DNA of 64,000 nt, taken from the NCBI GenBank assembly GCA_009914755.4, contig CP068257.2, positions 43,872,001-43,936,000 of the forward strand. Reading direction: 5' to 3'. The notes beneath the pieces were generated by a model. That model was not told the origin of the DNA and searched no databases. It worked only from the letters and a program-made list of their open reading frames with translations. The number at the start of each line of letters is the position of its first letter. Position 1 is the first letter of the stretch. Source of the stretch: the human T2T-CHM13v2.0 reference genome, Homo sapiens. Position numbers and translations under genes: made by a program. This document shows, one piece after another, positions 11,770 to 55,824 of the stretch.

Positions 11770-12252
11770 TCACTGGTTCACATTCTGAACACCGTCGCTT
11801 GGAAGACACTGCAAACCCAGCTTGCTGACACCAGGAGGATGGACAGCCAGCTGGGGACAAGTCTCATCTGCAGCCTCAGGGCCTGAGGCTTGGGCGGAGC
11901 ACAGAGTGCAGGGGGAAGGGGTTGTCACTGGGCTCAGGAATTCAGCTGCCTGCGGGGCCGGGGCCTGGGCCAGGTATGGGTCGCTCTGTCTCTGCTCCAG
12001 GGAGGCTGGCCCCACAGCCCCCAGGCTGTCTTCTGGGGAAAGCGGCGGGCTCTGGGCTGGCTGCAGGCCTCCGAGGCCCTTGTCCTGCACGCTCAGTGCC
12101 TGTGCTGCCTTCTCCTCCGCGGCACTCCTCAGGCCCTGGGCCGGGGGCTGCCGCGGGTGGTGGCCCCGCTGGCAGTGCCGCAGGCCATCCAGCATGGCCC
12201 CCAAGAAGTAGATGATGGACAGGATCAGGAAGTACACGGAGTATAACTGGAA
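11770..12252 (-). CDS. SLC19A1: SLC19A1 terminal coding exon: FQLYSVYFLILSIIYFLGAMLDGLRHCQRGHHPRQPPAQGLRSAAEEKAAQ...LQCLPSDGVQNVNQ*, stop at 11772-11770
   Basis: Acceptor ctctctttccag|TTCCAG. 160 codons plus stop. The five CDS segments sum to 1776 nt, which is 591 aa plus stop, as expected for RFC1. Confidence 0.92.
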   Translation of the reverse strand, partial: FQLYSVYFLILSIIYFLGAMLDGLRHCQRGHHPRQPPAQGLRSAAEEKAAQALSVQDKGLGGLQPAQSPPLSPEDSLGAVGPASLEQRQSDPYLAQAPAPQAAEFLSPVTTPSPCTLCSAQASGPEAADETCPQLAVHPPGVSKLGLQCLPSDGVQNVNQ

Positions 12253-14049
12253 CTGGAAAGAGAGGCCGGGTGAGGCGGGTGGGGAGGGCCTGGCTGGGAC
12301 ACTGGCACCCTACACCCCGACGCCTGCTCCCAGGCTCACCCTCCTCCAGCTCAGAGGCTGACCCTGAACACTGCACAGCGGTCAGAGGCCAGCCCCAGGA
12401 GCAGGTGCCACAGTGCTCACCACAGCCCCCCCGACCTCCACCACCTGGCACAGGCCTGAAGGGGGGTTCCCACCATTTCCCAAGAACCCCTCGGAACCTG
12501 GCAGGTGGCCTGCTTCTGCGTGGCCTGCGGTGTCTGCTCCCGAGTCCCCTGCTTGGTGGTGCTTGCTGCCCCCCCATGGTGCTGAGACAGCGGAAGGGTG
12601 CCCATGAGGGCCAGAACGTCCCGCCTGGCAGAGCAGGGTGAGGAGAGCCACAGCAGGTGACCAGGAGCTGATCCCCAGGGCTTCGCGCCCAGAGCAACCC
12701 CCAGCAGCCTGCACATGGAGCCCGTCTCCATCTCGGCAGCGGAAGCTGTGCTACGATGACCAGAAGGAGCAGCACCAGCATTGGCCACATCTCTCCTGAT
12801 TCTCGCAGCTGCCAGGGGCAGGAGGGACTGGAGATGTCCCTGGGACACCAGGGAGGGACCTGATCATTCCCGGAGGTGCAGAGGGTTCAGGAGGCTGCAG
12901 TGCCCTCAGGACATCCGTGGGCAGAGCCCAGTGAGTCCCGCCCAAGACCCCTGAGGCCCCAGCTCCACATCCGCAGGCCAGAATCCCTGCAGCCCATCGG
13001 CACCGGCACCCTTCCAGGACAGCTGTTTTTAAAGCAAACTGAGGAAGATGGGGCTGACACGCTTCTCCCTGCTCTTCTCCTACCCAAGACACTGAGATAA
13101 ACACCTGGGAAGACTCTGAAAGCAGGAGCGAGGAGGACAGACTGACCAGGCCCTCGGGGTCTGGGGAGCTGTGCCACACAAGGGCAGACTGGCCGGGCCC
13201 TCGGGGTCTGGGGAGCTGTGCCACGCAAGGACAGACTGTGCCACGCAGAGCTCCCTGGGGGCTTTTCTTTTCACCTCAGATATTTTGAAACTGAAGAAGG
13301 CAGCAGGCTGGAAAAGACAACAGATGCAGAAAAAAGAGCCCATGGAAGCAGCTCTCTCTGGCCTAAGACCCAGGGAAGGGTCAGCCCAACATGAGGAAAG
13401 ACCTTTCGACAGGAATCGCCCTGCTCCCCGCAAACACCAGACCTCGGCTCCACCCACCATGTCAGCAAGGACCCCCTACCCTCACCAGCCTGTAACAAGG
13501 ACCCCCGAGTCCCCTGCGGGGTGGTGTCAGACAACACCAGTGGGCACTAGAGCTTTCACTCCCACTGGTTGGTAAAGACACCCACCCTCACCCCCAAGGA
13601 GTCAGCAGAGACCACAGGGAAGCCCAAGATGTCACCCCCAAAGCCTCATGGAGTCAGTGGAGACCATGTGGGGAGCCTAGTCACCCCCGAAGCCTCACGG
13701 AGTCAGCAGAGACCATATGGGGAGCCTGGCCTCTTATCCTCACCCAGTAGTAAGAGCGTGCCTGTCCTGTCCCCCTCCATGCTGGGGGGTGTCAGAGGAG
13801 GTCAAGCGGGAGTCCAGACTTTCACCTACCCAGCAATAATGAGAATGTCCCAACCCCAGGGGCATCAAGGGGGCCACGAGGGGAGCTGGACTCCCATCCT
13901 TGCCTGGCAACAAGAAGGAGCCCCCACCCAGCCACCCACCCTCCCTCAGGTGTCACAAAGGCTGAGTGAGAGCCTGGACTTCCACCCCACCTGCCTGTAG
14001 CGAGGTGCACACCCCGCTTGACCTGCAGGAGTTGCGTCAGCCACAACAG

Positions 14050-19190
<5,141 letters not shown>

Positions 19191-20149: not shown

Positions 20150-21040
20150 GGGCCTTGGAGACTCACCTGTCCTGAGCGTTCACCCCTGGGCTTCGGAGGC
20201 TCACCCGCCCTGAGCGTTCACCCCTGGGCCTCGGAGACTCACCTGCCCTAAGCGTTCACCCCTGGGCCTTGGAGGCTCATCACCCTGAGTGTTCACGCCT
20301 GGGCCTTGGAGGCTCACCTGCCCTGAGTGTTCACACCTGGGCCTCGGAGGCTCACCCGCCCTGAGTGTTCACACCTGGGCCTCAGAGGCTCACCCACCCT
20401 GAGCGTTCACCCCTGGGCCTTGGAGGCTCACCTGTCCTGAGCGTTCACCCCCGGGCCTCGGAGACTCACCTGCCCTGAACGTTCACCCCTGGGCTTCGGA
20501 GGCTCACCCGCCCTGAGTGTTCACCCCTGGGCCTCGGAGACTCACCTGCCCTAAGCGTTCACCCCTGGGCCTTGGAGGCTCATCACCCTGAGTGTTCACG
20601 CCTGGGCCTTGGAGGCTCACCTGCCCTGAGTGTTCACACCTGGGCCTCGGAGGCTCACCCGCCCTGAGTGTTCACACCTGGGCCTCAGAGGCTCACCCAC
20701 CCTGAGCGTTCACCCCTGGGCCTTGGAGGCTCACCTGTCCTGAGCGTTCACCCCCGGGCCTCGGAGACTCACCTGCCCTGAACGTTCACCCCTGGGCTTC
20801 GGAGGCTCACCCGCCCTGAGTGTTCACCCCTGGGCCTCGGAGACTCACCTGCCCTAAGCGTTCACCCCTGGGCCTTGGAGGCTCATCACCCTGAGTGTTC
20901 ACGCCTGGGCCTTGGAGGCTCACCTGCCCTGAGTGTTCACACCTGGGCCTCGGAGGCTCACCCACCCTAAGCGTTCACCCCTGGGCCTTGGAGACTCACC
21001 CGCCCTGAGTGTTCACACCTGGGTCGGGGGTGTTGTACCC
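20150..21040. repeat. ~38-bp tandem repeat organised into a ~302-bp higher-order repeat (about 3 higher-order copies), SLC19A1 intron
   Basis: Units such as tcacctgccctgagcgttcacccctgggcctcggagac. The marker ctcatcaccctgagtgttcacgcctgg recurs at about 20275, 20578 and 20880. Confidence 0.85.
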
Positions 21041-21928: not shown

Positions 21929-22070
21929 CTGCTTGCGGACCGGGAGGCCCAGGCCCCGCACGTCCGAGACAATGAAAGTGATGATGGTCTTGACGATGGT
22001 GGCAAAGAACGTGTTGACCCCGAAGACCAGGGCACAGAGCTCTTTAGACAGAGAAGATGCAATCTGAAAG
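21929..22070 (-). CDS. SLC19A1: SLC19A1 coding exon 4: (T)FQIASSLSKELCALVFGVNTFFATIVKTIITFIVSDVRGLGLPVRKQ
   Basis: Acceptor ccgttcag|C, donor CAG|gtgagc. 1+141 nt. Completes the Thr codon carried over from exon 3. Confidence 0.92.
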
Positions 22071-22593
22071 CTGAACGGGAAGAGCGGGCAGATCAGGCGC
22101 TGCTGGGAGAATAAGCAGCAGCCACAGGGAAAAGCCTGCAGCCCGGCTCCCACCAGCCCATGACCCGCCCGGCAGCCACGGGGTCCCAGGGCACGCACAA
22201 GCCCCCCACCAGGCCCCCATCTCTCCCACACATGCCCGCCCCTGCCAGGCAGGAGCCAGCACCCAGGCCACCCTCGAGGGGCCATTCTGGGAGCTGCCGT
22301 GTCCCCCTGGCTCAGTACAGAGTGAGGGTCCCTTATCCAAAATGCCTGGGGCCAGTAGTTTTGGATTTGGGAATATTCACATGTCCATAATGAGATGTCT
22401 TGAGGATGGAACCCAAGTCTAAACACGAAATGCATTTATGCTCATATGCACTGTACACACACAGCCAGAAGGTGATTTTATATAATACCTGACAAACATT
22501 TGCAAGCCAAAGGGGTTGCCTGCTACTGCCCAGGGCCTCACCCTGAGTTCTGGAGTAATTTTGTGCATGAAGAAACTTTTGACCGTGTTCTGA

Positions 22594-26440: not shown

Positions 26441-26787
26441 GTAAGCTGAGGATGAACTCACACAGGTGCAAGCTCCCGCTCCTGCCTGGATGGGGTCTCA
26501 GCAGCCCGGGGCCTAGAGGGTGGGGTTGGGAGCAGGGCAAGGCTGTGAGCCCAGCAGGCTTCAGAGAGGAGCGTGGAGGGCCTGGGGGAGCAGCAAGACG
26601 GCACAGGAAGGGACGCCCGAGGTCCCAGGGAGAGGCAAGTGGGGACCCTGGTCAGCTCCAGGTGGCTGGCGGGGCCAGCAGTGGCACAGCCGCTGGGGCG
26701 CAGCAGGAAGGTGGGAGCACCCAGCGAAGCGCGGGGCTTGATCCTGGCGCCTGCCCGCCCCCGGCTTCCCACCCTTCTGGAACTCAC

Positions 26788-26989
26788 GTGGCGATGGGCA
26801 CGAGGAACTGGTAGGAGCCGCGGAACAGCACGAAGGCCGCATAGCACAGCCAGATGCTGCTCGGGTGGCGCGTGTGCGCCAGAAGGAAGACCAGCCCCGC
26901 CTGCGTGGCCGTGACGCCCGCGATGAGCAGCTTGGACCAGCGCGCCCAGCGGATCTTCACGAAGCCCGCGGCGAAGGACGTGATGGCGC
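26788..26989 (-). CDS. SLC19A1: SLC19A1 coding exon 3: (G)AITSFAAGFVKIRWARWSKLLIAGVTATQAGLVFLLAHTRHPSSIWLCYAAFVLFRGSYQFLVPIA(T)
   Basis: Acceptor tcccctctcag|GC, donor AC|gtgagt. Phases 1 to 2 fit both neighbouring exons. Confidence 0.92.
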
Positions 26990-27039
26990 CTGAGAGGGGA
27001 GGGATGGGGCGTTGCAGCGGCCCTGGGGGGCCACGGGGC

Positions 27040-27600
27040 AGGGGGAGGTAGCGGGAGCTTCTGAGGAAAGGTATCCACGGGGCAGGGGGCGGGGACGGGG
27101 AGCCTCCGGGGAAGGATCCACGGGGCAGGGGGAGGTGGCAGGGAGCCTCCGGGGGAAGGATCCACGGGGCAGGGGGCGGGGAGGGGGAGCCTCCGGGGGA
27201 AGGATCCACGGGGCAGGGGGAGGTGGCGGGGAGCCTCCGGGGGAAGGATCCACGGGGCAGGGGGAGGTGGCGGGGAGCCTCCGGGGGAAGGATCCACGGG
27301 GCAGGGGGAGGTGGCGGGGAGCCTCCTGGGGAAGGATCCACGGGGCAGGGGGAGGTGGCGGGGAGCCTCCGGGGGAAGGATCCACGGGGCAGGGGGAGGT
27401 GGCGGGGAGCCTCCGGGGGAAGGATCCACGGGGCAGGGGGAGGTGGCGGGGAGCCTCCGGGGGAAGGATCCACGGGGCAGGGGGAGGTGGCGGAGAGCCT
27501 CTGGGGGAAGGTATCCATGGGGCAGGGGGCGGGAGAGGGAGCCTCCGGGGGAAGGATCCACGGGGCAGGCGGAGGTGGACGGGAAGCCTCTGCGGGAAGA
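27040..27600. repeat. 44-bp minisatellite (about 12 copies; unit gggaaggatccacggggcagggggaggtggcggggagcctccgg) in the SLC19A1 intron between coding exons 2 and 3
   Basis: Periodic repeat seen. It produces the repetitive LPPEAPRHLPLPRGSFPRRLPATSPCPVDPSPGGSPPPPPAPWI artefact ORFs. Confidence 0.9.
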
Positions 27601-27626
27601 AGCCTCGGGGACCAGGGCATGCGTAC

Positions 27627-28386
27627 CCAGCAGCGTGGAGGCAGCATCTGCCGCGCCGTTGTAGACCCGCGCACTGTTGGTGGTGGGGTCCACCTCGTTC
27701 CACAGGATGTGCACGTAGTAGACCACCAGGTAGTAGCCGGCCGAGTTGAAGACCCACCAGAGGGACCACAGGCGCAGCTGCGGCCGCCGCAGGCTGTCCC
27801 CCAGCTCCCGCAGCATCCGCGCCAGCACTGAGTCCCCACAGGCCACCCGCAGGGCGTGTCCCAGCTTCCCGCCTGGGCCGGGATTCATGCGCTCCAGCTC
27901 CGAAGCCGAGGTTTCGCACCGCCCCCGGTCGTCGCGGTTGAAGAAGAGGCTGCGCTTGGGGCGCTTCAGGAAGAGGGCGAGGACCACGCTGAAGGTGAGG
28001 AAGGCCAGCGAGATGTAGTTGAGCGTGGAGAAGGAGACTCGGCCCACAGTGACCAGCAGCTGGCCCAGCACGGAGCTGGTGAACACGCCCAGCAGCACCG
28101 CAGCGCGCGAGTAGCCGGCCACACGCTGGTAGCGCGCGGGCCGCACGAGAGAGAAGATGTAGGAGGAATAGGCGATGCGCGCGGCCATGGTGACGCTGTA
28201 GAAGAGCTCCATGAGCTGCATGTGCGCCACCGAGTGGCCCAGCAGCAGCAGCAGCCACACCGACACGAAGCTGAGCCCCTGCAGCAGCAGCACCGGCGTG
28301 TAGCGCAGGTAGTCGGTGAGCAGGAACACGGGCACCAGCACGGCCAGGTAGGAGTACGACAGCACCGGCGTGATCTCGTTCGTGAC
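27627..28386 (-). CDS. SLC19A1: SLC19A1 coding exon 2 (760 nt), VTNEITPVLSYSYLAV...NSARVYNGAADAASTLL(G), covering transmembrane domains 2-7 of the major-facilitator-superfamily fold
   Basis: Acceptor ccgcag|GTCACG, donor CTGCTGG|gtacgc. It is the in-frame part of the 651-aa minus-strand ORF that the track gives at 26458..28413. Confidence 0.92.
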
Positions 28387-28423
28387 CTGCGGACAGGCGG
28401 GCGTGCGCCCCACCAGGCGTTAG

Positions 28424-32189: not shown

Positions 32190-32340
32190 CCTTGCCCCCA
32201 AAGCTGCTCCCCGCCCACCTACTGGTGGCTGCCCCTGCACCCCGGCGCCCACGTGCCTGCTCCCGCGTGAAGTTCTTGTCGGGCCCCAGGAGGGAGGGCG
32301 TGATGAAGCTCTCCCCGGGCCTCTCCTGCAGCCAGAGGGG
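32190..32340 (-). pseudogene. Intronic partial copy of the 3' part of the SLC19A1 first coding exon (…PGESFITPsLLGPDKNFTREQ), plus its donor and one repeat unit: a pseudo-exon fragment
   Basis: About 75 nt near-identical to 34131-34205, including GAGCAG|gcacgt. The upstream part of the exon is absent. Confidence 0.7.
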
Positions 32341-33611: not shown

Positions 33612-34130
33612 CTGGCCCCTGAAGCTGCTCCCCGCCCACCCATAGGCGGCCGCCCTGGCACCCAGCACCCACGTGCCTATTCCAGAAGCTGCTCCCCGCC
33701 CACCCACAGGCGGCCGCCCAGCACCCCGGTGCCCACATGCCTATTCCAGAAGCTGCTCCCCGCCCACCCACAGGCGGCCGCCCGGCACCCCGGCACCCAC
33801 GTGCCTATTCCAGAAGCTGCTCCCTGCCCACCCACTGGCGGCCGCCCCCGCATCCCGGCACCCACGTGCCTATTCCAGACGCTGCTCCCCACCCACCCAC
33901 AGGCGGCCGCCCAGCACCCCGGCGCCCACGTGCCTATTCCAGAAGCTGCTCCCCGCCCACCCACAGGCGGCCGCCCTGGCACCCAGCGCCCACGTGCCTA
34001 TTCCAGAAGCTGCTCCCTGCCCACCCACTGGCGGCCGCCCCCGCATCCCGGCGCCCACGTGCCTATTCCAGACGCTGCTCCCCGCCCACCCACCCACAGG
34101 CGGCCGCCCGGCACCCCGGCACCCACATGC
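33612..34130. repeat. ~64-bp tandem array (about 8 copies), each unit carrying a CACGTG E-box; the array abuts the donor site of the SLC19A1 first coding exon
   Basis: Repeated unit ...ggcggccgcccagcaccccggcgcccacgtgcctattccagaagctgctccccgcccacccaca. The last unit is continuous with the exon/intron junction. Confidence 0.85.
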
Positions 34131-34319
34131 CTGCTCCCGCGTGAAGTTCTTGTCGGGCCCCAGGAGGTAGGGGGTGATGAAGCTCTCCCCTGGCCGTATC
34201 TGCGCCATGAAGCCGTAGAAGCAAAGGTAGCACACGAGGCGCCGCCAGGACCGGAGCTCGGGGTCAGGCCCAGGTTCCACGGGCACCTGCTTCTCCACCG
34301 CTGGGCTGGAGGGCACCAT
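34131..34319 (-). CDS. SLC19A1: SLC19A1 (reduced folate carrier) first coding exon, CDS part: MVPSSPAVEKQVPVEPGPDPELRSWRRLVCYLCFYGFMAQIRPGESFITPYLLGPDKNFTREQ. The exon continues 5' to 34368 as 5'UTR (acceptor ccctccttccag|GCACAG). The donor is GC (CAG|gcatgt).
   Basis: ATG at 34319-34317 on the minus strand. The 63 codons match the remembered human RFC1 N-terminus. Codon 27 is CGC (Arg). Confidence 0.9.
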
Positions 34320-37999: not shown

Positions 38000-39650
38000 T
38001 CTCTGAGACGCCTCGGGATTGCTCCGCTGGATCCGCACCCACAGCTGCTCCAAGGGGAAGTTGCACCTACAAAGCTTCTGGCACAGGAGACAATGGTCTG
38101 GAGATGTGCCAGGGGCCCGCCCCACGCGTGGCTGGCAGGGTTCACCCACCGGCTGGCCCGTCCCGAAGCAACACGTGCCTGGGCGCGAACGCCGGATCCA
38201 CGCTTTCCTCCAGACCCGGGGGTGGGACTTGGCGCCCCAGGATGACGCGGAGGGCAGGCTGGGGGCCGGGACTCCCCACCCCATTCGCAGGCTGCGGCGG
38301 AAAGCGAGCGGCGGGAAACCCGCTGCACAGCAACGGTTCTGCCAGGCGCCCGGGCCACCGCGACCCCCGCGGAGACCCCGGCCCACGCCCCGCACCCTCC
38401 CCAGGGCCCCCCAGACCCCAGGCTGCAGACCGCAGACCCCGGCCACGCCCCGCACCCTCCCCAGGGCCCCCCAGACCCCAGGCTGCAGACCGCAGACCCC
38501 GGCCCACGCCCCGCACCCTCCCCAGGGCCCCGCGGACCCCAGGCTGCAGACCGCAGACCCCGGCCCACGCCCCGCACCCTCCCCAGGGCCCCGCGGACCC
38601 CAGCGCCAGCCCCCACACTCACCTCACAGGGCCCTGCAAACCTCGGCCCGCGCCCCGCACTCACCCCAGGGCCCCGAGACACCCCGCAGCCCCCGACACG
38701 CGGCCCCGTGGCCCCGTTCCCCACCGGTACCTGCGACTCGGCGGGGCGGCTGCCCTGGGGCTCCCGGACCCGGCCCCGCGCACGCGGACTCCGGGACTAC
38801 AGCGCCCACAAGGCGGCGCGGCGGGCGCGCGGCTGCGGGGTGGGCGGGTCCGTCCCGCCGAACGCGTCCTGAGGGCGGGGCCTCGCGCGTGGCCGGGCGC
38901 TGCGGCAGGAGCGTCCCCACGGGGCACCCTCCCACCCACGGCCGTCTCCCAGCCCCGGCGCCGGCCTCTCCCCACCCGGTCACCGCCGGGGTCACGCGGC
39001 CCCTCGTGCTGCGGCCCTACCCCTGGGGCCGCCCCCTGACCCCGACCGCCCCTCGGGCCCCCACCCCCGCCGGCGTCAGCATCCTGGGGTGCCACTCGCG
39101 GAGGTGTCGGTCCCTCGGGCGGGCACCCTGCCATCCCTCTCCCCCGCGTTCTTCCCACCCCCGGTCCCCTCCTGACCCCCCCTCCTCGACGAGGCCTTGT
39201 GCGTTTTCCTTTTGGCACCCTGGAACACCTGCATTCCTGGCCGCAAGCTGGATCCGGGACGCGGGTCGGGCCCACGCGCCCTCAGGGGTGGCCCTGGGCC
39301 GCCTTCGTGGGGCTCCAACAGGGACACGCACAGCCTGCTCTTGGGGACCGCACGGCCCCGAACTCGGCGCCCCCGGGACCCCGCCGCCCGCCCTCCTGCC
39401 TGACCGTGACCCGTACGGGCTTGTACCAAGGAGCAAGCCGGATCCAGGACGTGGCCCGGGGCCACCAGTCCCCATCCCAGCAGGGACAGCCCGGGGGAGA
39501 CCCGCGCAGGCCTCGCAGACGGCAGCGCAGTCACACTCAGGAAGGGGGGCCTGGGCCACTCTCCCAGGAAGGCGTGGGGCTGCGGCAGACAGCACCGCCG
39601 AAAGCCCAAGGCCTGTGCAGGACACGGGGAGAAGTGGGGGGCCTCAGGGT
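38000..39650 (-). promoter_or_regulatory. SLC19A1: CpG island with GC boxes, 3.7-5.3 kb upstream of the SLC19A1 first coding exon. Most likely the major SLC19A1 promoters (hRFC-A/B) and their short non-coding first exons, whose exact boundaries cannot be resolved from sequence alone.
   Basis: Very high CpG density and GC content seen. Multiple GGGCGG/CCGCCC motifs. The 61-bp tandem repeat described in the literature for SLC19A1 promoter A lies inside it. Confidence 0.6.
38380..38640. repeat. 61-62-bp tandem repeat, about 4 copies (unit ccccggcccacgccccgcaccctccccagggccccccagaccccaggctgcagaccgcagac)
   Basis: Direct tandem copies seen. Matches the unit length of the published functional 61-bp promoter polymorphism of SLC19A1. 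Confidence 0.75.
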
Positions 39651-43099: not shown

Positions 43100-45600
<2,501 letters not shown>

Positions 45601-45959: not shown

Positions 45960-46200
45960 CAGCCTCGGGAGAAAAGGGCAGTGATGTGGCAGGGGAGGGG
46001 CAGGGGGACAGGTAGTGGGTGGTGGGGAGGGGGACAGGTGGTGGGGGAGGGGCAGGGGGAGAGGTGGTGGGTGGTGGGGAGGGGGATAGGTGGTGGGGGA
46101 GGGGCAGGGGACAGGTGGTTGGTGGTGGGGAGGGGGACACTTGGCGGATTGTGGGGAGGAGGACAGGTGGGGGGTGGTGGACGGTGGGGAGGGGACAGCT
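45960..46200. repeat. G-rich tandem repeat (ggggagggggacaggtggtgggtggt-like units)
   Basis: Periodic G-rich units seen. The minus strand gives proline-rich artefact ORFs. Confidence 0.8.
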
Positions 46201-47513
46201 GGGCGCACACTGTGGCTCTTGGTTGCAGATGGGGTACAGGTCCAGTATGCTCCAGCCACGTAGGTCTCCATGTGACCTCCTTCACATCTTGTCCCCACAG
46301 AGACCCTCATCTCTGCCCCTTCTTAGCCCCAGGGCAGCCCTCCCAGGCTGCAGAGCCCCGAACTCTCTGGCATCTTGGGAACTGTCTCTCCCCGGCCAGG
46401 CTGGCACATGCGGATGTTGCAGCATTGGCCAAAAGTGGACAGTGGGGGTCAGTGTGGGGTACCGCCCACCCCATCCCAGCCCCTCCTGGGCTGCTGTGCA
46501 TCCTGCTCCTGCCCACCCAGCCCAGGCTGGCACCTCCTCCTGGTCTCTCCCACACCCCATGCACCGCCCTGGTCACTTCTGTGGTTTGGGGTGTTTCCCT
46601 CCTGGGGAGGCGCCTCCTGCCTGATGAGACCTCTGAGCCCCAAAGGGTCACATGAGACTGTGTCCCCAGGTGGCAGCTGTTGGTTCTCTCCAGCCCCCAC
46701 AGACACCTCAGGCCCCCGTATGCCAGACCGCTTGGAGATGGGGTCTTCTGTGCTCCCTTCTTCCCATGGGCCACCTGCCACCCCCGTCCACAAGCACAAG
46801 TGAACGTTTCCACGTGGAAAGGGCTGGTTCTCCAGCTGGAATTTCCTTGACTACACGGTCTTATTAGATCCAGAATGGAACTGCATGAAATAAACAGGGA
46901 GATTTGGGCAGGATGGAGCTCAGTTCTCCCAGCCAAGGGGAGACCACAGCCAGCTCTCCATTCACGGTTCAGGATCACAGCAGCCCCGCCGGGAGGCTTG
47001 GCCTTGCAGGCCCCGGGCTTCCGTGGTTTTGTTGCATGCAGATTTCGTCGTCTTCTTCTGAATGTTTCAGTATTCATGTGTTCCTGGATGACTGGCGTTC
47101 CCTCTCAATTTTCACACGCAGTAGTGCAGGGGCGTGCAGTCTGCAGACCCCTCTCCTCTCCTCCACCTTCTCAACCTCCCTTACCTCCACACCCATCTCC
47201 CCTCCCTGCCTCCCTCCTCTGCCTTCCTCCCCTCTCCTCCGCCTTTCTGTCCCCTTCCCTCCCACCACCGCCCCCCACCCTCCCCCCCGCCTCCCCACAA
47301 CCCTTCCCCCACCCTCCTCAACCTTCCCAGCACTGGCCCCCGCCTCCATTCTCCTCCCCACAACACCCACTTCCTCCTCTACCTTCCCCCTTGTCTTAGT
47401 CCCTTTCCTGTTCTTCACAGTCCCAGCTACGCCTGGGTTGGTTGCACTCTCTGTTCCTCTTATTTTCTTTCAAGGAACTACCTTTTGGATCTAAAAACTC
47501 AAGTTTTACTTAA

Positions 47514-47640: not shown

Positions 47641-49979
47641 TTTAATTGCTTTCCAATTAATTAATTTCTGCTTTTCTCATTATTTTTTCTTTTTCCTGTT
47701 GACTTTGTTGTTCCTTTCCTGTTCTAGTTTCTGAGTTAACTGCTATGTTCCTTTAATTTGAATAAAACTAGGAATAATAAACCATTTAATAATTCATTCC
47801 TCTCACGGGGCACCTTTGGCCAGGCCCATGGACGCTGTGTCACTACACTTGTTGCTGTCAGCCTCTACGTAGGACGTGATTTTTGCTTGATTTCCTCTTG
47901 GACTCATGACTCATTACAGAGAATGATTCAAACGTTTCCAGTAGGCAGATGTTGTTGTTTGTTGGTTTAATATGTCGTTTTATAAAGTTCAGATCAAAGA
48001 ACGTGGCCTAAGCAGGTATTCATTTTGTGAAATTGTTTTGAGCTTCGATTTGTGGCTTGGTTTTGGGTTATGTTTTAAACTTTTTCATGGGCTTTCGAAA
48101 AATGCATATTCTCTATGCACATCGTGTTTTATATGAATAAAATCTAAATTGCAAATAGTGGGATTTCAATCTCTGATAGCCTCATTCATGCATTGTCTGG
48201 GGTATGTGTCAAGTTTGCCAGAGTGAAGGGCCCCGCCGTGACTGGGGTTCGCGCCTCCCTGCATGTCCACGCCTTTATGTCCGTACTTTAGGGCAGTGTG
48301 GAGATGGACCCACACCGCCTGCGTGTTCTGCCGCCACGCTGGCCTGAGACCTCGGCTTCCTGTGCGGCCTCCTTATGGCTGTTTCAGGTGCGTTCCTCAG
48401 AGCATGGGGTGGAATTTGCTTTTCTACAAAAGGTGTCTGCCCGAGTGTCTGACCCACTGTCTCGCCGCTCCATGGGGCTGGCTGTGTGGTGGGGACTGAC
48501 GGCCTCCTCAGGAGGAGACAGTGATGACCCCAGGGAGTGGGTGAGGCCACTGTCAGACCAGAGAGATCTGCGATGGGCCAAAGAAGAGGCTGGGCTGCTG
48601 CTGCTGCATCTGTGTCTGCCCAGGGGAGCTACATCCTGGCCTCAGGACCTCCCTCCCAGCCTGAGCAGCAGGGGTCAGGCTGGTCCAGCTCTCAGGAGTG
48701 TCCCAGGGAAAGAACAAAACTGCCCTCCTGTCCACTCCAGGGAGACCCACAGGCTGTGCCACCAGCAGGCAGTGTGGACATCGGTGGCTGTTGGGTCGGG
48801 GGCCCCAGGGAGAGCCCCTGGGGAGAGCGACACCCACCCGGAGGCTCAGGCCAGGCCAGGACCGCAGCCCTCGAATGTGCAGAGACCCCGGGTCCTACCC
48901 AGGCCCGGGTCTCGGGACCACGTGGAGGAGGGATTAGCGCGTGCTATAATCCGCAGTCACCAGCAGAGCAGACAGCCTCTCGCCCAGAACAGGGCACCCG
49001 GGACAGCCCCAGCCCCAGCAGAGAGGGGCTGGTCTCAGCGAAGTGGAGCGGGTCTTAGTGGGTTGGGGCCAGTCTCATCCTGGCCCTGGGTGTGTCCCAG
49101 ACCCCTAATGCGGAGCCTGCAGGTCATTCCTGGCCCATGAGTCTGACCTGACACGGGAGTCTCTGGGCTGGTCCGCCCGTCCACCCTGTCCCTGCGTTTG
49201 TGCTGATAGGAGGACACTGCTCAAAACACACGACGGCTGTGTGCTATAATCCACGGTCACCAGCAGAGCAGACGGCCTCTCGCCCAGAACAGGGCACCCA
49301 GGGCAGTGCCAGCCCCAGCTCTCCGTGGCGCCCCCCATGTGCTCACTTTTACACAAGACCTCGCGCAATGGAAGCTCTTCCTCCTGGCAAATCGCAGGGG
49401 GCAGATTCCACTAAAACAAGACTCCACCGGGCGGCAGGTGGCCAGGCTCAGGGCTGGGGCAGGACCGGAGCGGGGGCCTCGCTGGAGGCTGGGCCTGGAG
49501 GGCAGGGGCCTTTGCTGCCGTGGGTGCAGTTTTGTAAGCAGAGGCTGGGGCTGGGTCCTGCCCTGCAAGCTCTACTGGTCCTTCCAGGCACCGCGCATCC
49601 CTCCCACCGGCCTAAGGGGACGGGAGCCGCTGACCTTTAGGACCTGTGCAAGGGTCATGGTGCTGTGTGAAGGACACGACTCCAGGCCACATCCTCCCTC
49701 CAGCCCATGAGGGTCCCCGGGATAAAGTCCAGAGGAGCCACAGGGGACACGGCTCAGTGGGAGGCAGCCCGGCCCATCACAGTGCCAGCCCTAGGCCTTG
49801 CTGTTATTATTTTGTATTTTTTTTGTGGTAAAAGAGACATAAAATGTACCATGTTAACTATTTTTAACTGCACACTTCAATGGCATTAAGGACATTCACA
49901 CTGTTGTGCGGCCGTCACCCCCATCATCTCCAGAACTCTTTCGTCCTGCAAAACTGAAGCTCTGCACCCAAGACACACT

Positions 49980-51540
49980 CACCCCCAATCCCCCCGCGCC
50001 CCCCTCCTAGTCCCCCCGCGCCCCCTTCCCAGTCCCCCACACCCCCTCCCAGTCCCCCACACCCCCTCCCAGTCCCCCACGCCCCCTCCCAGTCCCCCAC
50101 ACCCCCTCCCAGTCCCCCACACCCCCTCCCAGTCCCCCACACCCCCTCCCAGTCCTCCACGCCCCCTCCCAGTCCCCCACACCCCCTCCCAGTCCCCCAC
50201 GCCCCCTCCCAGTCCCCCACACCCCCTCCCAATCCCCCACACCCCCTCCCAGTCCCCCACACCCCCTCCCAATCCCCCACGCCCCCTCCCAGTCCCCCAC
50301 GCCCCCTCCCAGTCCCCCACACCCCCTCCCAGTCCCCCACACCCCCTCCCAATCCCCCACACCCCCTCCCAGTCCCCCACACCCCCTCCCAGTCCCCCAC
50401 GCCCCCTCCCAGTCCCCCACACCCCCTCCCAGTCCCCCACACCCCCTCCCAGTCCCCCACACCCCCTCCCAATCCCCCACGCCCCCTCCCAGTCCCCCAC
50501 GCCCCCTCCCAGTCCCCCACACCCCCTCCCAGTCCCCCACACCCCCTCCCAATCCCCCACACCCCCTCCCAGTCCCCCACACCCCCTCCCAATCCCCCAC
50601 GCCCCCTCCCAGTCCCCCACGCCCCCTCCCAGTCCCCCACACCCCCTCCCAGTCCCCCACGCCCCCTCCCAGTCCCCCACACCCCCTCCCAGTCCTCCAC
50701 GCCCCCTCCCAGTCCCCCACGCCCCCTCCCAGTCCCCCATGCTCCCCCAATCCCCCGCGCCCCCTCCCAGTCCCCCGCGCCCCATCCCAATCTCCCCGCG
50801 CCCCCTCCCAGTCCCCCGCGCCCCCTCCCAATCCCCCCGCGCCCCCCTCCTAGTCCCCCCGCGCCCCCTTCCCAGTCCCCCACGCCCCCTCCCAGTCCCC
50901 CACGCCCCCTCCCAGTCCCCCACGCCCCATCCCAGTCCCCCACGCCCCCTCCCAGTCCCCCACGCCCCATCCCAGTCCCCCGCGCCCCATCCCAGTCCCC
51001 CACGCCCCATCCCAATCCCCCGCGCCCCCTCCCAATCCCCCCGCGCCCCCTTCCCAGTCCCCCACGCCCCCTCCCAATCCCCCACGCCCCCTCCCAATCC
51101 CCCGCGCCCCCTCCCAATCCCCCCGCGCCCCCTTCCCAGTCCCCCACGCCCCCTCCCAATCCCCCACGCCCCCTCCCAATCCCCCGCGCCCCCTCCCAAT
51201 CCCCCCGCGCCCCCTTCCCAGTCCCCCACGCCCCCTCCCAATCCCCCACGCCCCCTCCCAATCCCCCGCGCCCCCTCCCAATCCCCCCGCGCCCCCTTCC
51301 CAGTCCCCCACGCCCCCTCCCAATCCCCCACGCCCCATCCCAGTCCCCCACGCCCCCTCCCAATCCCCCACGCCCCCTCCCAATCCCCCGCGCCCCCTCC
51401 CAATCCCCCCGCGCCCCCTTCCCAGTCCCCCACGCCCCCTCCCAATCCCCCACGCCCCATCCCAGTCCCCCGCGCCCCCATCCCAGTCCCCCATGCCCCC
51501 CCAATCCCCCGCGCCCCCCTCCCAATCCCCTGCGCCCCCA
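49980..51540. repeat. ~1.55-kb minisatellite of 20-bp units (ccccacaccccctcccagtc)n, about 75 copies; C-rich on the plus strand and G-rich on the minus strand
   Basis: Highly regular periodicity seen, with minor G/A and A/G variants between units. It generates the 555- and 549-aa Gly-rich artefact ORFs. Confidence 0.95.
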
Positions 51541-51849
51541 TCCCACTTTCTGGCCGGGTCTGGCCACCGCGGGGCCTCTGAGTGGAACCACGCACAGGGG
51601 GCGTCCTCTTGTGCCTGGCCAGGGGCACTCAGCATCGTGTCTCCAGGTCCCTGCACGGGGCAGCGGCGTGGAAACTTCCTTTCAGGCCGGCGATCCTTCC
51701 TGTGTGCGTCTCCACATTTTGATTTTTCATTTATGGATGGACATTTGGACATCTCCTTCCGCTTGGCTGTGGTGACTAAAGCTGCTGTGCTATCATTTTT
51801 ACTATTATTGTTATGACAAGTTGACAAGTGAATCTTTCTCTTACGGTTT

Positions 51850-53000
51850 CGGTTTTTCCCATCTTATTTGCTTTTAACTGTCCAGATTCATTGAGTCCCA
51901 GCAGCGGGCCCTGTTCCCGGCTTCAGTGGCGAGGCCCCTCGCCTTCTCCCCAGAAGCAGCCCCTTTGACGACATCGGTACTTTCGGTCCATTCCCTGGGT
52001 CGATGTTTCCAGAACCCCGCGCCCAGGAGCACGTCCAGGTTATGCGTGGGGCCGCCCTGTGCGCGCGCCTGGAGGCCTCGGGTTTCCCCGACGCAACGCG
52101 GGGAGTGGCCACCAGGGGGCGAGCGGCGCCCGGAGCCTCCGCGGGTCCCAGCCCAGCAGCCTCGCGACGCAGGGGGCGGTGCAGGGGGCGGCGGGGGCGG
52201 CGCAGGGGGCGGTGCAGGGGGCGGCGGGGGCGGCGCAGGGGGCGGTGGGGGGCGCCGGGGGGCGGCGCAGGGGGCGGCGCAGGGGGCGGCGCAGGGGGCG
52301 GCGCAGGGGGCGGCGCAGGGGGCGGCGCGGGGGCGGCGGGGGCGGCGGGGGGCGGCGGGGGCGGCAGCGCTGCAGGTGGGGGTGGGGGTTGCAGGGGCGG
52401 CGGGGACAGTATGGGAGGCAGGGGCGGTGTGGAGAGCTGGGGGCCGTGGGGGGTGTTGGGGGCGGGAGGGGGATGGGGGAGGTTGTGGGGGGAAGGGGAA
52501 CCGGCTTGGGTGGCCATGCAGGCGACGCGGGTTGCAGGGAACGGAGGTGCAGGGGGCGGCGGCGGGGGCGGCGGCGAAAGGGGACGGGCTTGCGTGGCCC
52601 CGCGCGGGGGCTAAGGGGCTGCAGGCCAACCCACCGTCCCGGGCACTTGGGACTCAGGAGGGCGGGGCGGGGCGGGGCGGCCCGCGTGGGGAGTGCCTGA
52701 GGCTGGCCTAGGCCCTGGGACCGTAGCCTCCCGAGCAGGGTGGGCTCCACGCGAACGGCGGGCGCTGGCAGAAAGCGACCCACGCAGAGTTCCGCGCCAG
52801 CCGAGGGGCCCGGCTGCCGCCCATGCGCGGTCCTGGAGGTGCCGGGAGGGGGTCGCGGACCCTGAGGCAGGATCCACGTGGTCCCTGCGGGCCCAGTGAG
52901 TGACATCACCGCGACGCTGCGCATGGAGCAAGCTCTACACCCGGGAGATGGCCACGGTGCGCATGCAGCAAGGTCTACTCCCGCGAGGTGACCACGGGAC
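51850..53000. promoter_or_regulatory. Second CpG island containing a (GCAGGGGGCGGC)n-like GC-rich repeat at about 52130-52400. Candidate upstream alternative promoter or non-coding first exon of SLC19A1, or an unannotated TSS.
   Basis: High CpG density and GGGCGG motifs seen. Lies about 17.5 kb upstream of the SLC19A1 ATG, inside the region where additional non-coding 5' exons of this gene have been reported. Confidence 0.4.
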
Positions 53001-53879
53001 AGACGATCCTCTGAGGTTTCCAGGAAGACCCCCGCCCTAATCCTCTGAAGGTCGGAGGTCACAGGTCAAAGCCGAGAACAGAAGCTGGGGTGGGGCACAC
53101 AGAGGTGGAAAGAGGGGCCTGAGCATCGGGCGGCCACCAGCAGGGTCCCCTCCTGGCCACAAGGACGCTCCCGTTCCAGTCCCCGGAAGAGGGTGGCTGC
53201 AGCCACCCCGGGGATGACCAGCAGAGGTCCTCACGGCCTGCGGCCCGGGGAGACCTGAGACTCCTAAGCTGAGCACGTCAGCGTCTCTACCTCCACCGCA
53301 GACAGAAAGACCGGGCGGACCCAAGACTGCAAGCTCAAGCCCTGGCGGCAGGGCAGCGGGGCCTGTGAGGGCCGAGGGTGGACGCTGCTCTGAGCCAGAC
53401 CCGCTCGTCAGCAGCTCGGCCTCCCCCGCTGCTCCCCACCAGCGCCCGGGCTTGGGTGTTTGGTGCTTCCAACTTTTCAAGAGAAGCTTGAAATCTGTAA
53501 TTCTTATGTGAAATCCTGCCTTTCTTAACTAATTAAAGACTTAAAATTAGCTAGTTAAAATTAATTAAAATTGATTAAATTTGTACTAATTAAAACTAAC
53601 TGAATTCTTCTCAAAACACCGTGCAGACGAAACCAGTCAGTGACACACCTGTCTGCAGCCATAGCACCAGGAGACATGGGGTGGGGGCCAGGGACATGGC
53701 CGGAGCTGCCACAGACAGGACAGAACAGGACGTTGTCAAGCGCTCTGTGGCTGATCTGTCTCTGTTGCACCAAAGTATTTTAAATGTTCTCTCACGTCCT
53801 CTGGAAGATCTTGGATGGGGAGAGAGGCGGGGTGGAGGGTGGCATGGGAGTCCTGTGGCCGGGGCTTCCTGGGGGCCCT

Positions 53880-54010: not shown

Positions 54011-55824
54011 CAGAGGCCTGGCTACTCCGAGAGGCCTCTGGACACCATGTAACCTCCCCTGGGCTCAGCCCTGGCCTGGCCAGTGCCCTGGTACCAGGAC
54101 TTGGGCACCAGCCACTGCCTCCCCACGTGTCAGCTCCTTGCACAATGGCACCCGCTGCATGGAGCTGCCCAGGACTCAGGAAGAACGGAGCTGGAGGCTG
54201 GGCCCTGGGGCTGCTGAAGCCCTGGCAGCAGGAAGGGATTTGAGATAGAGAACCCGAGGCCAGAGCACTGGGGCTCAGACAGCGGCCCGGGAGATGGGTC
54301 TTCCCTATCAGTGGAGACAGACCTTGGCCTCGTGACACCCTGGAGTCCCCGGCTTTGACCCCGTAGCCCGTGCCACATTCTCCTGAGGCTTCTCGTCTGC
54401 TCTGGGTGAACCAGGTGCTGGCCTGTGCCTTGTGGCCCCAGCCTGGCCCTGAGCCCCGGGTCCTGCACACCTTGCTGGTAGTCTCTGTCACAGAGACGGT
54501 TGGGCCCGGAGGCTGCTGGCATGTGAGTGTCCGCCTGGAGTGTCCTGCTCCAGCCACAGCCCTGCAGTGGTTCATGGCCAGAGCAGAGGAGCGAGGGCTG
54601 GGGGTTTGTGCAGTGACCAGGACCAGGGTGCAGGGGCCCAAACCAAGGCCACTCACTGCCCTGAATTGAGCAGAAGGGATGCTCTGAGGCTCCCGGGGAG
54701 CCTCAACCCTCCACCACACTCAGACAGTGTGCCTCTCTTGGACCGTGTCCTGCGCTCTGGTGACTCTCGGGGATGCTAGTGAGGAGCTTGTCCCGGCTCA
54801 GGCTGAGCCCTCTGCTCAACTAACAGCACAGACGCAGCCCAGACAGTTGCGGAGGGGAAGCAGGTGTGGGGGTGGCCGTGCCCTCGGCACTCGGACTTGG
54901 CCTCCTGAGCCCAGTGGCGTGGGGAGTGATAGTGTGATGCTCACCTTTGCCTCCTGCGTGTCTGACGGAATCATTCCTGTTTAGACATGAGCTCCATTCT
55001 TCGGAGGGCATGACCAGGAGGCCACCTATTTGGGGATATTTTTAGAGTCATGCCATCCAAGGCAGTCTGTGCCGAGTGGCTCCATATTCAGACAGCGGCG
55101 GCATCGTCTCCAAGCCTGGGCTCAGTGGTTAGCACGTCCCGTGCTGACGAGAGACTGGAGGCGGCTTCTGAAAACCCTTCGGGGCCAAGGCTCTCTAGTC
55201 GGACTCCACACGGCTGGTGACAGATCAGGCCAGACAAGTGCATGACACCCACCATCCAAGACGACAGGCTGAGACCCCCCAAGTCCAGGTGGGCCACGGC
55301 TGGCTGGACCTCAGCTGGGACTCGGACATGCTGGCTCTGCAGCCTGGCCCCAGGGTGTGGGCCTGCAGCTCTGGCTGCTGAGAAATCCCCAGTGGGCCCT
55401 TCAACCTTTGAAGGATTCGCCCCATTGTCACTGCAGTGAGACCCCCTGAGAACCCGGGAAGGCAGTGGTGCCGCAGAAGGGGTGCTGGCCGGCGAGCCTT
55501 GGGGATCTTCCCAGGGATGCAGCAGGTGGGGCTGTGACCAGGCTGCAGAGGGTGTTTCTTCTTCGTATGTGGCCAGTGTGACTTGAGTTCAGCCCCAGAA
55601 ATAAATGTGTGAGAGGACTGCGTTTGGTTTGAGCGAGGGCAGGCACAGGTAGGGAGCGGAGCTGCTACAGGAAGCCCTGCGGCTGGGAATCTGAGGGAGT
55701 CGGGGCAGCCTTGTTGCCAGGGCAGGACAGAGTACGGCCACCTGGTTGCTTGGAACAAGGTGGAGCTGTGTTCCAATTTCTCAGCACACAGGGAAACACA
55801 TTTCAGTTAAATTGAATTTTCTTT

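What the first reader, a model, noticed from the sequence alone, without database searches (positions are those of the whole stretch)
49980..53000. 1.5-kb C-rich 20-bp VNTR immediately flanking a second CpG island with GC-rich internal repeats: possible distal alternative promoter with strand-asymmetric G4 / i-motif potential
About 75 perfect-to-near-perfect copies of ccccacaccccctcccagtc sit next to a CpG island (about 51.85-53.0 kb) that itself contains (GCAGGGGGCGGC)n-like repeats. The minus strand is GGGGAGGGGGTGTGGGG-rich. That is the transcribed-strand sense for SLC19A1, so transcription through the array could form extensive G-quadruplex/R-loop structure. SLC19A1 is reported to have several far-upstream non-coding first exons, and this island is a candidate for one of them. 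The giant Gly-rich ORFs in the track are artefacts of the repeat.
Basis: partly seen in the sequence, partly recalled or inferred. Interest (0 to 1): 0.5.

Follow-up and report, generated by a model that had tools for sequence, protein, structure and literature searches.

The report
L1-derived G-quadruplex minisatellite upstream of SLC19A1
A 1.5-kb, 20-bp tandem repeat about 16 kb upstream of the human folate-carrier gene SLC19A1 is an ordinary GC-rich minisatellite that grew out of the G-rich tail of an old L1 retrotransposon; the neighbouring CpG island is real, but nothing available here shows that it is a promoter.

Summary
TRF finds a 20-bp array at 49991-51545 (76.9 copies, 91% matches), and a 1280-bp CpG island lies at 51831-53110 with a 12-bp G-rich array inside it.

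The window is the human SLC19A1 locus with the gene on the minus strand. G4 potential is extreme and one-sided: 55 motifs on minus, 0 on plus, G4Hunter 2.37. It follows from 69% G rather than from the arrangement of the bases.

The new result is the origin. The two flanks are colinear halves of one 5'-truncated L1 3' end on the minus strand. The array sits exactly at that L1's 3'-UTR G-rich tract, a known quadruplex site.

The island's own G-runs lie on the opposite (plus) strand. Literature held here places SLC19A1 promoters A1/A2, A, B and C about 4-6 kb upstream, in or near the other island (38.0-39.6 kb).

Whether the 52-53 kb island is a far-upstream SLC19A1 first exon could not be tested, because no transcript, CAGE, chromatin or population data were reachable.

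Verdict: an ordinary member of the G4-forming, GC-rich minisatellite class. Interest is low.

The parts
49991..51545 (-). 20-bp GC-rich minisatellite, about 77 units. The G-rich strand is minus, which is both the L1-sense and the SLC19A1-sense strand.
   Evidence: TRF; unit parsing; 54 matches at up to 2 mismatches against 0.01 expected; G4Hunter -2.37 with 55 G4 motifs on minus and 0 on plus.
50034..50740 (-). Left, homogenised domain made of CACA and CACG unit types. It is CpG-depleted (o/e about 0.5).
   Evidence: lag-20 identity 95%; best lags 120, 200 and 320 at 97-98%.
50990..51450 (-). Right domain: an 82-bp higher-order repeat of four units (20+22+20+20 bp). It is CpG-rich.
   Evidence: 91.6% identity at lag 82 against 77% at lag 20. 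Unit string FDCC repeated. CpG o/e 1.07 for 50741-51545.
49800..49990 (-). Distal part of the L1 3' UTR, with an A-rich tail at about 49800-49826.
   Evidence: The recalled L1 3'-end consensus, positions 1-172, aligns to 49839-50008 at 80.8%, E 9.5e-38. The A-rich run is visible in the sequence.
51546..51830 (-). Remnant of the L1 ORF2 C-terminal coding region plus the first part of the 3' UTR. It is 5'-truncated near 51790-51830 and heavily GC-enriched.
   Evidence: Consensus positions 147-453 align to 51507-51789 at 62.8%, E 1.5e-17. The consensus translation matches ORF2p residues 1127-1271, E 1e-66. AT-to-GC against GC-to-AT changes are 46:7.
51831..53110 (.). CpG island. It is an 'orphan' as far as can be told here.
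   Evidence: 1280 bp, GC 0.73, o/e 0.80, 130 CpG; still qualifies without its tandem repeat.
52164..52405 (+). 12-bp (GCGGCGCAGGGG)n array with a 33-bp higher-order period. It is G-rich on the plus strand.
   Evidence: TRF; GC 0.91, skew +0.52; 5 G4 motifs on plus, 0 on minus.
52660..52681 (+). Run of overlapping GC boxes (GGGGCGGGGCGGGGCGGGGCGG).
   Evidence: Motif scan; sequence. This is a consensus match only.
52875..52997 (.). Non-G-run part of the island. It holds CACGTG (52875), TGACATCA (52901), two GCGCATG sites (52919, 52959) and a 40-bp x2.1 repeat (52914-52997).
   Evidence: These are consensus matches only, not evidence of binding.

Best explanation
**What it is.** The array is a GC-rich, G-quadruplex-prone minisatellite of the kind that clusters near human chromosome ends. 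It arose by tandem amplification of the G-rich tract that lies about 40 nt after the ORF2 stop in the 3' UTR of an old, 5'-truncated L1 element. That L1 lies on the minus strand, in the same orientation as SLC19A1. The array sits 15.7-17.2 kb upstream of the SLC19A1 start codon and about 10.4 kb upstream of the gene's main promoter island.

**How it grew (inferred).** Growth and turnover were by replication slippage and unequal exchange or gene conversion. Evidence for this is the block duplication, the 82-bp and 120/200/320-bp higher-order periods, and the homogenised left domain. The unit series CGCG to CACG to CACA looks like methyl-CpG decay copied along the array. The surrounding L1 remnant has drifted strongly from AT to GC, as expected in a high-recombination, GC-biased region.

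**What it does (inferred).** Most likely it has no dedicated function. Its physical properties are a very G-rich minus strand and a C5-tract plus strand. It could therefore form G4, i-motif or R-loop structures if transcribed in the SLC19A1 sense or when replicated. The adjacent CpG island is a separate unit whose promoter status is open.

**Shown and inferred.** Shown: the anatomy, the strand asymmetry, the L1 flanks and the gene orientation. Inferred: the growth mechanism, length variability, methylation and the lack of function.
For: - **Array and domains:**
- **L1 flanks:** the flanks align colinearly to one L1 3'-end consensus. Positions 1-172 map to 49839-50008 (81%, E 1e-37) and positions 147-453 map to 51507-51789 (63%, E 1.5e-17). 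The array therefore replaces consensus positions of about 146-178, the C-rich (antisense) tract.
- **Check on the consensus:** Its translation matches solved human L1 ORF2p residues 1127-1271 at E 1e-66. It also aligns to another in-window L1 copy (18492-18933, E 3e-31), which itself hits ORF2p at E 1e-8.
[quoted passage not shown] It cites Howell and Usdin 1997 for the polypurine tract.
- **G4 measures:** G4Hunter -2.37; 55 motifs on minus, 0 on plus. ViennaRNA with G-quadruplexes enabled gives -135 and -99 kcal/mol per 120 nt with three G4s, against -12 and -15 without them.
- **GC-biased drift:** AT-to-GC against GC-to-AT changes are 19:3 and 46:7 in the two flanks.
- **Gene orientation:**
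Against: - The L1 assignment rests on a consensus recalled from memory. Dfam and RepeatMasker were not available.
- The right-flank translation gives no significant ORF2p hit on its own (tblastn E 1.9).
- The flanks do not align significantly to the other L1 copies in the window.
- G4 stability is not above composition-matched shuffles (-103 +/- 20 and -99 +/- 17 kcal/mol). The regular repeat adds little beyond G-richness.
- Length polymorphism, methylation state and absence of function were not tested.
- If a minus-strand TSS exists in or beyond the island, the array is transcribed and could matter for distal SLC19A1 transcripts.
Confidence: 0.7

Rival explanations
1. The 51.8-53.1 kb island is a distal alternative promoter or non-coding first exon of SLC19A1, for example one of the far-upstream exons D or E. 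Its minus-strand transcripts run through the array, where G4 or R-loop formation modulates them.
For: - It is a strong CpG island.
- It is the only strong one between the main promoter island and the window end; only a weak 320-bp segment lies at 54951-55270.
- The literature reports seven non-coding exons for the gene (Whetstine 2002, cited in PMC2387170 and PMC4122975). From my memory they map over about 35 kb upstream.
- The array's G-rich strand is the sense strand for such transcripts.
- GC boxes, an E-box, a CRE-like site and GCGCATG sites are present.
Against: - No transcript, CAGE or chromatin evidence was reachable.
- Promoters A1/A2, A, B and C are placed about 4-6 kb upstream, at the other island (PMC3669122).
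- The island's skew (+0.3 to +0.55 over 52.0-52.8 kb) and all 8 of its G4 motifs are on the plus strand. A minus-strand promoter here would be the minority 'reverse-skew' type: 2099 against 8332 co-oriented promoters in PMC3787257.
- No strong splice donor was found, but that scan is uninformative.
Confidence: 0.25
2. The island is not a promoter. It is a CpG-rich segment produced by GC-biased evolution plus amplification of GC-rich short repeats, as is common in this kind of region. It meets the formal criteria without being a transcription start.
For: - The adjoining L1 remnant has been driven from about 36% to 60% GC, with a 46:7 AT-to-GC bias, and already has CpG o/e 0.64.
- The right half of the minisatellite alone passes CpG-island criteria (o/e 1.07).
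- About 240 bp of the island is a 12-bp tandem repeat with 91% GC.
- The window holds about 35 tandem-repeat loci and many GC-rich stretches.
Against: - The island keeps o/e 0.75 over 1038 non-repeat bp. That is hard to maintain if it is methylated in the germline.
- In contrast, the left half of the array has decayed to o/e 0.51.
- A cluster of promoter-type motifs lies in its non-repetitive part.
Confidence: 0.3
3. The island is the promoter of an independent plus-strand (or bidirectional) non-coding transcript heading away from SLC19A1. The array is merely its upstream neighbour.
For: - Positive GC skew and plus-strand G4 motifs start near 52.0 kb and run for about 800 bp. This is the co-oriented pattern of the commonest CpG-island promoter class (PMC3787257).
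- The skew changes sign between the array and the island.
Against: - No transcript evidence.
- No Rfam family at 44-64 kb.
- No protein-family signal in ORFs of the island.
- Much of the skew is carried by one 12-bp tandem repeat.
Confidence: 0.2

Closest known systems
Human GC-rich, G-quadruplex-forming minisatellites CEB1, CEB25 and HRAS1 (PMC2673046, PMC3486850)
   Same: A tandem array with a 10-100 bp unit, GC above 50%, strong G/C strand asymmetry and many tandem G4 motifs. It has 55 motifs, which would place it within the class of 504 arrays with at least 30 motifs counted in PMC3486850. It lies in a gene-rich distal chromosome region.
   Different: The unit is shorter (20 bp against 39, 52 and 28 bp). 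The G-tracts have five Gs. Neither instability nor G4 folding has been shown experimentally for this array. Its origin from an L1 3' UTR is specific to this locus.
Insulin-linked polymorphic region (INS VNTR), unit ACAGGGGTGTGGGG (PMC2691825, PMC11336075, PMC12852952)
   Same: The minus-strand unit ACTGGGAGGGGGTGTGGGGG shares the GGGGTGTGGGG core. Both are G4 on one strand and i-motif on the other, tandemly repeated upstream of a gene.
   Different: The INS array lies within the proximal promoter and has documented effects on transcription and length classes. This array is about 16 kb upstream of the SLC19A1 ATG and about 10 kb from its main promoter, with no functional or population data.
L1 3'-UTR polypurine/G4 tract (Howell and Usdin 1997 as cited in PMC4407331; PMC4407331)
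   Same: Same position in the element (just after ORF2), same sense-strand G-richness and the same motif type.
   Different: Here the tract is amplified about 77-fold into 1.5 kb in a dead, truncated element. It is no longer acting in retrotransposition.
The 61-bp tandem repeat in the SLC19A1 promoter-A region (window 38373-38603; recalled as Whetstine, Witt and Matherly 2002, not checked here)
   Same: A GC-rich tandem repeat, G-rich on the minus strand, at the same locus.
   Different: It has 3.8 copies inside the main promoter island and a reported effect on promoter activity. The 20-bp array is far larger and far from known promoters.

Membership tests
GC-rich G4-forming minisatellite (CEB1/CEB25 class) | Head-to-tail array with a 10-100 bp unit | tested here: met
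   Period 20, 76.9 copies, 91% matches.
GC-rich G4-forming minisatellite (CEB1/CEB25 class) | GC content above 50% with G/C strand asymmetry | tested here: met
   GC 0.77, skew about -0.8 on plus; minus strand 69% G.
GC-rich G4-forming minisatellite (CEB1/CEB25 class) | Many tandem potential G4 motifs (at least 30 in the strict subclass of PMC3486850) | tested here: met
   55 non-overlapping G3+ (loop 1-7) motifs on minus and 0 on plus; 35 with G4+ runs. Shuffles give 32 on average, so the count is largely compositional.
GC-rich G4-forming minisatellite (CEB1/CEB25 class) | G4 folding demonstrated in vitro | not testable with these tools
   Prediction only: ViennaRNA with G-quadruplexes enabled places three five-layer G4s per 120 nt.
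GC-rich G4-forming minisatellite (CEB1/CEB25 class) | Length polymorphism or instability (being a true VNTR) | not testable with these tools
   No other human or primate allele could be retrieved. The higher-order repeats and block duplication suggest recent turnover.
GC-rich G4-forming minisatellite (CEB1/CEB25 class) | Location in the terminal part of a chromosome arm | not testable with these tools
   The locus is SLC19A1, reported at 21q22.3 (PMC4122975). The distance to the telomere, about 1.2 Mb, is from memory only.
Tandem repeat derived from an L1 3' UTR | Both flanks colinear with one L1 3' end, with the array at the G-rich tract | tested here: met
   The consensus was recalled from memory but validated against ORF2p.
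Tandem repeat derived from an L1 3' UTR | A recognisable ORF2 coding remnant in the flank itself | tested here: inconclusive
   No PDB hit at E up to 10. tblastn of the ORF2p C-terminus gives 51824..51732 at E 1.9, in the expected place and order.
Tandem repeat derived from an L1 3' UTR | Poly-A tail and target-site duplication | tested here: inconclusive
   An A-rich run on the minus strand lies at about 49800-49826. Target-site duplication was not searched for.
CpG-island promoter / SLC19A1 alternative first exon | Meets CpG-island criteria | tested here: met
   1280 bp, GC 0.73, o/e 0.80. Robust to removing the tandem repeat.
CpG-island promoter / SLC19A1 alternative first exon | GC skew co-oriented with SLC19A1 (minus-strand) transcription downstream of the TSS | tested here: not met
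   The skew within the island is positive on plus, with 8 G4 motifs on plus and 0 on minus. Co-oriented skew appears only once the array is reached.
CpG-island promoter / SLC19A1 alternative first exon | Mapped transcript 5' ends and a splice junction to the ATG exon | not testable with these tools
   No human transcript or CAGE resource was available. The donor scan is uninformative, because true SLC19A1 donors score 3.3-10.3 on the same scale.
CpG-island promoter / SLC19A1 alternative first exon | Unmethylated with active-promoter chromatin | not testable with these tools
   No data. Indirect evidence only: CpG o/e is retained in the island and lost in the left half of the array.
i-motif-forming sequence | Four or more C-tracts of at least 5 C with short loops | tested here: met
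   32 non-overlapping C5+ x4 motifs (loops 1-12) on plus and 0 on minus. The rule is from memory and folding was not tested.

The most novel reading that the evidence does not exclude
The L1-derived array and the island's plus-strand G-rich repeat could be the two oppositely G-skewed arms of one bidirectional orphan promoter centred near 51.6-52.0 kb. In that case the SLC19A1-sense arm would be a length-polymorphic G4/R-loop element. Its copy number would tune the use of far-upstream SLC19A1 transcripts, and so folate and antifolate transport. It would be an INS-VNTR-like regulator built from a retrotransposon's quadruplex tract.
Probability: 0.07. Interest if true: 0.55.

Novelty: already known. 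Interest (0 to 1): 0.15.

Why it matters
As it stands, this matters little. GC-rich G4-forming minisatellites are common near human chromosome ends and have been counted genome-wide, and CpG islands away from known gene starts are also common.

Two points are of modest use. First, the locus is a clean example of a retrotransposon's 3'-UTR quadruplex tract being amplified into a 1.5-kb array. Second, SLC19A1 is a pharmacogene (methotrexate and pemetrexed uptake) with a complex 5' region. If array length varied and affected distal transcripts, it would be a variant invisible to SNP panels. That second point is untested.

Tried and rejected
1. **Exon-mapping papers.** Whetstine 2002 (PMC1222932), Payton 2007 (PMC1963461) and three Matherly reviews are not held.
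2. **Literature on this array.** Searches for SLC19A1 with VNTR, tandem repeat or long-read returned only TYMS-VNTR or unrelated papers.
3. **Pfam on the L1 remnants and on an in-window L1 copy.** No family, including DUF1725.
4. **Memory-free test of the L1 origin.** Aligning the flanks to other L1 copies in the window gave nothing significant, because both sides are too diverged.
5. **Does the L1 continue into the island?** An extended consensus gives score 12 against 10.5 +/- 1.0 for shuffles. Rejected.
6. **Other alleles or orthologues.**
   - The array motif is absent from the metagenome and prokaryote genome collections.
   - Exact-protein look-ups for P0001 and two window ORFs found nothing.
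   - A homology search with the L1-remnant plus array ORF found nothing.
7. **N-terminally extended SLC19A1 isoforms, to locate upstream exons.** The search returned only short fragments.
8. **Rfam on 44-64 kb.** Nothing.
9. **Splice-donor scans.** No strong site, but known donors of this gene also score low, so the scan is uninformative.
10. **Genome-wide G4-minisatellite table of PMC3486850.** The stored file is truncated and contains no chr21 rows.
Full report
[quoted passage not shown] These are aa 1-66 at 34319..34122, 62-317 at 28392..27625, 314-384 at 26999..26787, 384-431 at 22072..21929 and 431-591 at 12255..11773, at 94-100% identity. The first 160 residues are 100% identical to an NCBI protein named 'solute carrier family 19 member 1, partial [Homo sapiens]'. 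So the window is the human SLC19A1 locus, and 'upstream' of the gene means higher window coordinates. The array starts 15.7 kb upstream of the ATG, and the island starts 17.5 kb upstream.

**Checking the observation.** TRF reports one array at 49991-51545 with period 20, 76.9 copies, 91% matches and consensus CCCCCACGCCCCCTCCCAGT. It is the highest-scoring of about 35 tandem-repeat loci in the window.
The chance expectation is 0.01.
- Parsing gives about 77 units of about 20 types.
- A sliding scan finds a CpG island at 51831-53110: 1280 bp, GC 0.73, o/e 0.80, 130 CpG. It contains a 12-bp array, GCGGCGCAGGGG x17.5, at 52164-52357.
- The island still qualifies after that array is removed (1038 bp, GC 0.69, o/e 0.75).

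Only the left half of the array is near-perfect. The island is 286 bp from the array. The right half of the array itself satisfies CpG-island criteria (o/e 1.07).

**Anatomy of the array.** It is not uniform.
- The left domain (50034-50740) consists of CACA and CACG unit types. It is 95% self-identical at lag 20 and 97-98% at lags 120, 200 and 320.
- An irregular block follows (50741-50990).
- The right domain (50990-51450) is an 82-bp higher-order repeat of four units, with 91.6% identity at lag 82 against 77% at lag 20.
- The first 70 bp of the array recur 69/70 at 50827-50896, so a large internal block was duplicated.
- The unit variants form the series CGCG, CACG, CACA. CpG o/e falls from 1.07 on the right to 0.51 on the left. 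I read this as methyl-CpG decay captured and spread by amplification; that is an inference.

**Origin of the array.** The sequences on either side of the array looked like the 3' end of an old L1.
It aligns at positions 147-453 to 51507-51789 (62.8%, E 1.5e-17).
- The two flanks are therefore colinear parts of one element. The array occupies exactly the C-rich tract (antisense) at consensus positions of about 146-178.
- Because the consensus came from memory, I checked it. Its translation matches solved human L1 ORF2p residues 1127-1271 of 1275 at E 1e-66. It also aligns to a second L1 fragment in the window (18492-18933), whose own translation hits ORF2p at E 1e-8.
- The G-rich tract lies about 40 nt after the ORF2 stop.

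The element lies on the minus strand. It is 5'-truncated near 51790-51830 and ends in an A-rich run at about 49800-49826. [quoted passage not shown] It cites Howell and Usdin 1997 for the polypurine tract. The array is thus an amplified L1 3'-UTR quadruplex tract.

There are three weak points. The right-flank translation is not significantly similar to ORF2p on its own. The flanks do not align to the other in-window copies. An extended consensus does not reach into the island.

Relative to the consensus, the flanks show AT-to-GC against GC-to-AT changes of 19:3 and 46:7. GC rises from 36% to 45% in the left flank and to 60% in the right flank. This fits GC-biased evolution.

**Structure potential.**
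- G4Hunter averages -2.37 over the array, meaning G-rich on minus. There are 55 G3+ motifs on minus and none on plus.
- The array is the longest such region in the window.
- ViennaRNA with G-quadruplexes enabled folds 120-nt minus-sense RNA segments into three five-layer G4s at -135 and -99 kcal/mol. Without G4s the values are -12 and -15 kcal/mol. The plus-sense RNA is essentially unstructured.
- Mononucleotide shuffles of the same segments reach -103 +/- 20 and -99 +/- 17 kcal/mol. Shuffles of the whole array still give 32 motifs. The potential is therefore a consequence of 69% G, not of the particular arrangement.
- The plus strand carries 32 C5x4 motifs.

**The island.**
- Its skew is opposite to the array's: +0.32 to +0.55 over 52.0-52.8 kb, with 8 G4 motifs on plus and none on minus.
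- In PMC3787257, 8332 CpG-island promoters have G-skew co-oriented with transcription and 2099 have reverse skew. By that rule the island looks more like a plus-strand start, or one arm of a bidirectional one, than a minus-strand SLC19A1 promoter.
- By contrast, the main SLC19A1 island (38001-39560) is G-rich on minus, co-oriented with the gene.
- Consensus matches in the island include stacked GC boxes (52660-52681), CACGTG (52875), TGACATCA (52901) and two GCGCATG sites. These are not evidence of function.
- Splice-donor scans found nothing strong, but true donors of this gene score as low as 3.3 on the same scale. The scan says nothing either way.

**What the literature allows.**
- PMC2387170 states that a region of about 1400 bp including promoters A and B is a CpG island. 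This fits 38001-39560.
- PMC3669122 places 'several promoter regions' about 4 kb upstream. It assigns its assays between -8 kb and the ATG to promoters A1/A2, A, B and C.
- The paper describing seven non-coding exons (Whetstine 2002) is not held. My recollection that they map over about 35 kb is unverified.
- So four of the six known 5' regions are accounted for elsewhere. D and E remain possible candidates for the 52-53 kb island.

**ORFs.** The 555-, 549-, 325- and 274-aa Gly-rich ORFs on the minus strand and the 280-aa Pro-rich ORF on the plus strand exist because the main unit types contain no stop triplet in any frame on either strand. They have no Pfam family and no homologue.

**Comparison with known systems.**
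- The array fits the class of GC-rich, G4-forming human minisatellites exemplified by CEB1 and CEB25. PMC3486850 counts 504 arrays with at least 30 G4 motifs, mostly near chromosome ends.
- Its minus-strand unit ACTGGGAGGGGGTGTGGGGG shares the GGGGTGTGGGG core of the insulin VNTR unit ACAGGGGTGTGGGG. That VNTR forms G4 and i-motif structures and affects INS transcription.
- Unlike the insulin VNTR, this array is far from any known promoter and has no functional or population data.

**Verdict.** The promoter part is untested and somewhat disfavoured by the island's strand bias. The feature is an ordinary, already catalogued kind of human repeat. The one added insight is its birth from an L1 3'-UTR quadruplex tract. 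Interest is 0.15.

Noticed in passing
window 32240-32335 (minus) compared with 34105-34205 (minus): About 95 bp comprising the 3' part of the first SLC19A1 coding exon, its splice donor and the first intron bases is duplicated about 1.9 kb further into the intron. The exon part is about 93% identical and is preceded by ...ctgcag. It could be a pseudo-exon.
   Followed up: partly
window 38373-38603: A 61-bp x3.8 tandem repeat (97% matches) lies inside the main SLC19A1 promoter CpG island and is G-rich on the minus strand. From memory this is the known 61-bp promoter-A polymorphism of hRFC.
   Followed up: no
window 33621-34132: A 64-bp x7.9 GC-rich array begins right at the donor of the first coding exon. 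A tamarin 'hypothetical protein' (P0055) reads from that exon into a repetitive Arg/Gly-rich tail, which may be the equivalent intronic repeat; I did not check this.
   Followed up: no
window 20141-21023 and 27031-27610: Two further large intronic minisatellites of SLC19A1: 38 bp x23 with a 303-bp higher order, and 44 bp x13. The second is strongly G4-prone on the plus strand, antisense to the gene.
   Followed up: no
window 18475-18933 (+) and about 45300-45600: Other old L1 ORF2 C-terminal and 3'-end fragments. The 18.5-kb copy keeps an unexpanded G-rich tract just after ORF2.
   Followed up: partly
window 51546-51830: The L1 remnant between the array and the island has been pushed from about 36% to 60% GC, with 46 AT-to-GC against 7 GC-to-AT changes. 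The remnant on the other side of the array is much less altered (19:3, 45% GC).
   Followed up: partly
window 45986-46197 (+) and 47188-47379 (-): Two more short G4-dense tandem repeats of opposite strand bias lie a few kb on the SLC19A1 side of the array.
   Followed up: no
window 52914-52997: A 40-bp x2.1 direct repeat in the non-G-run part of the island. Each copy carries GCGCATG and a CCCGSGAG element.
   Followed up: no
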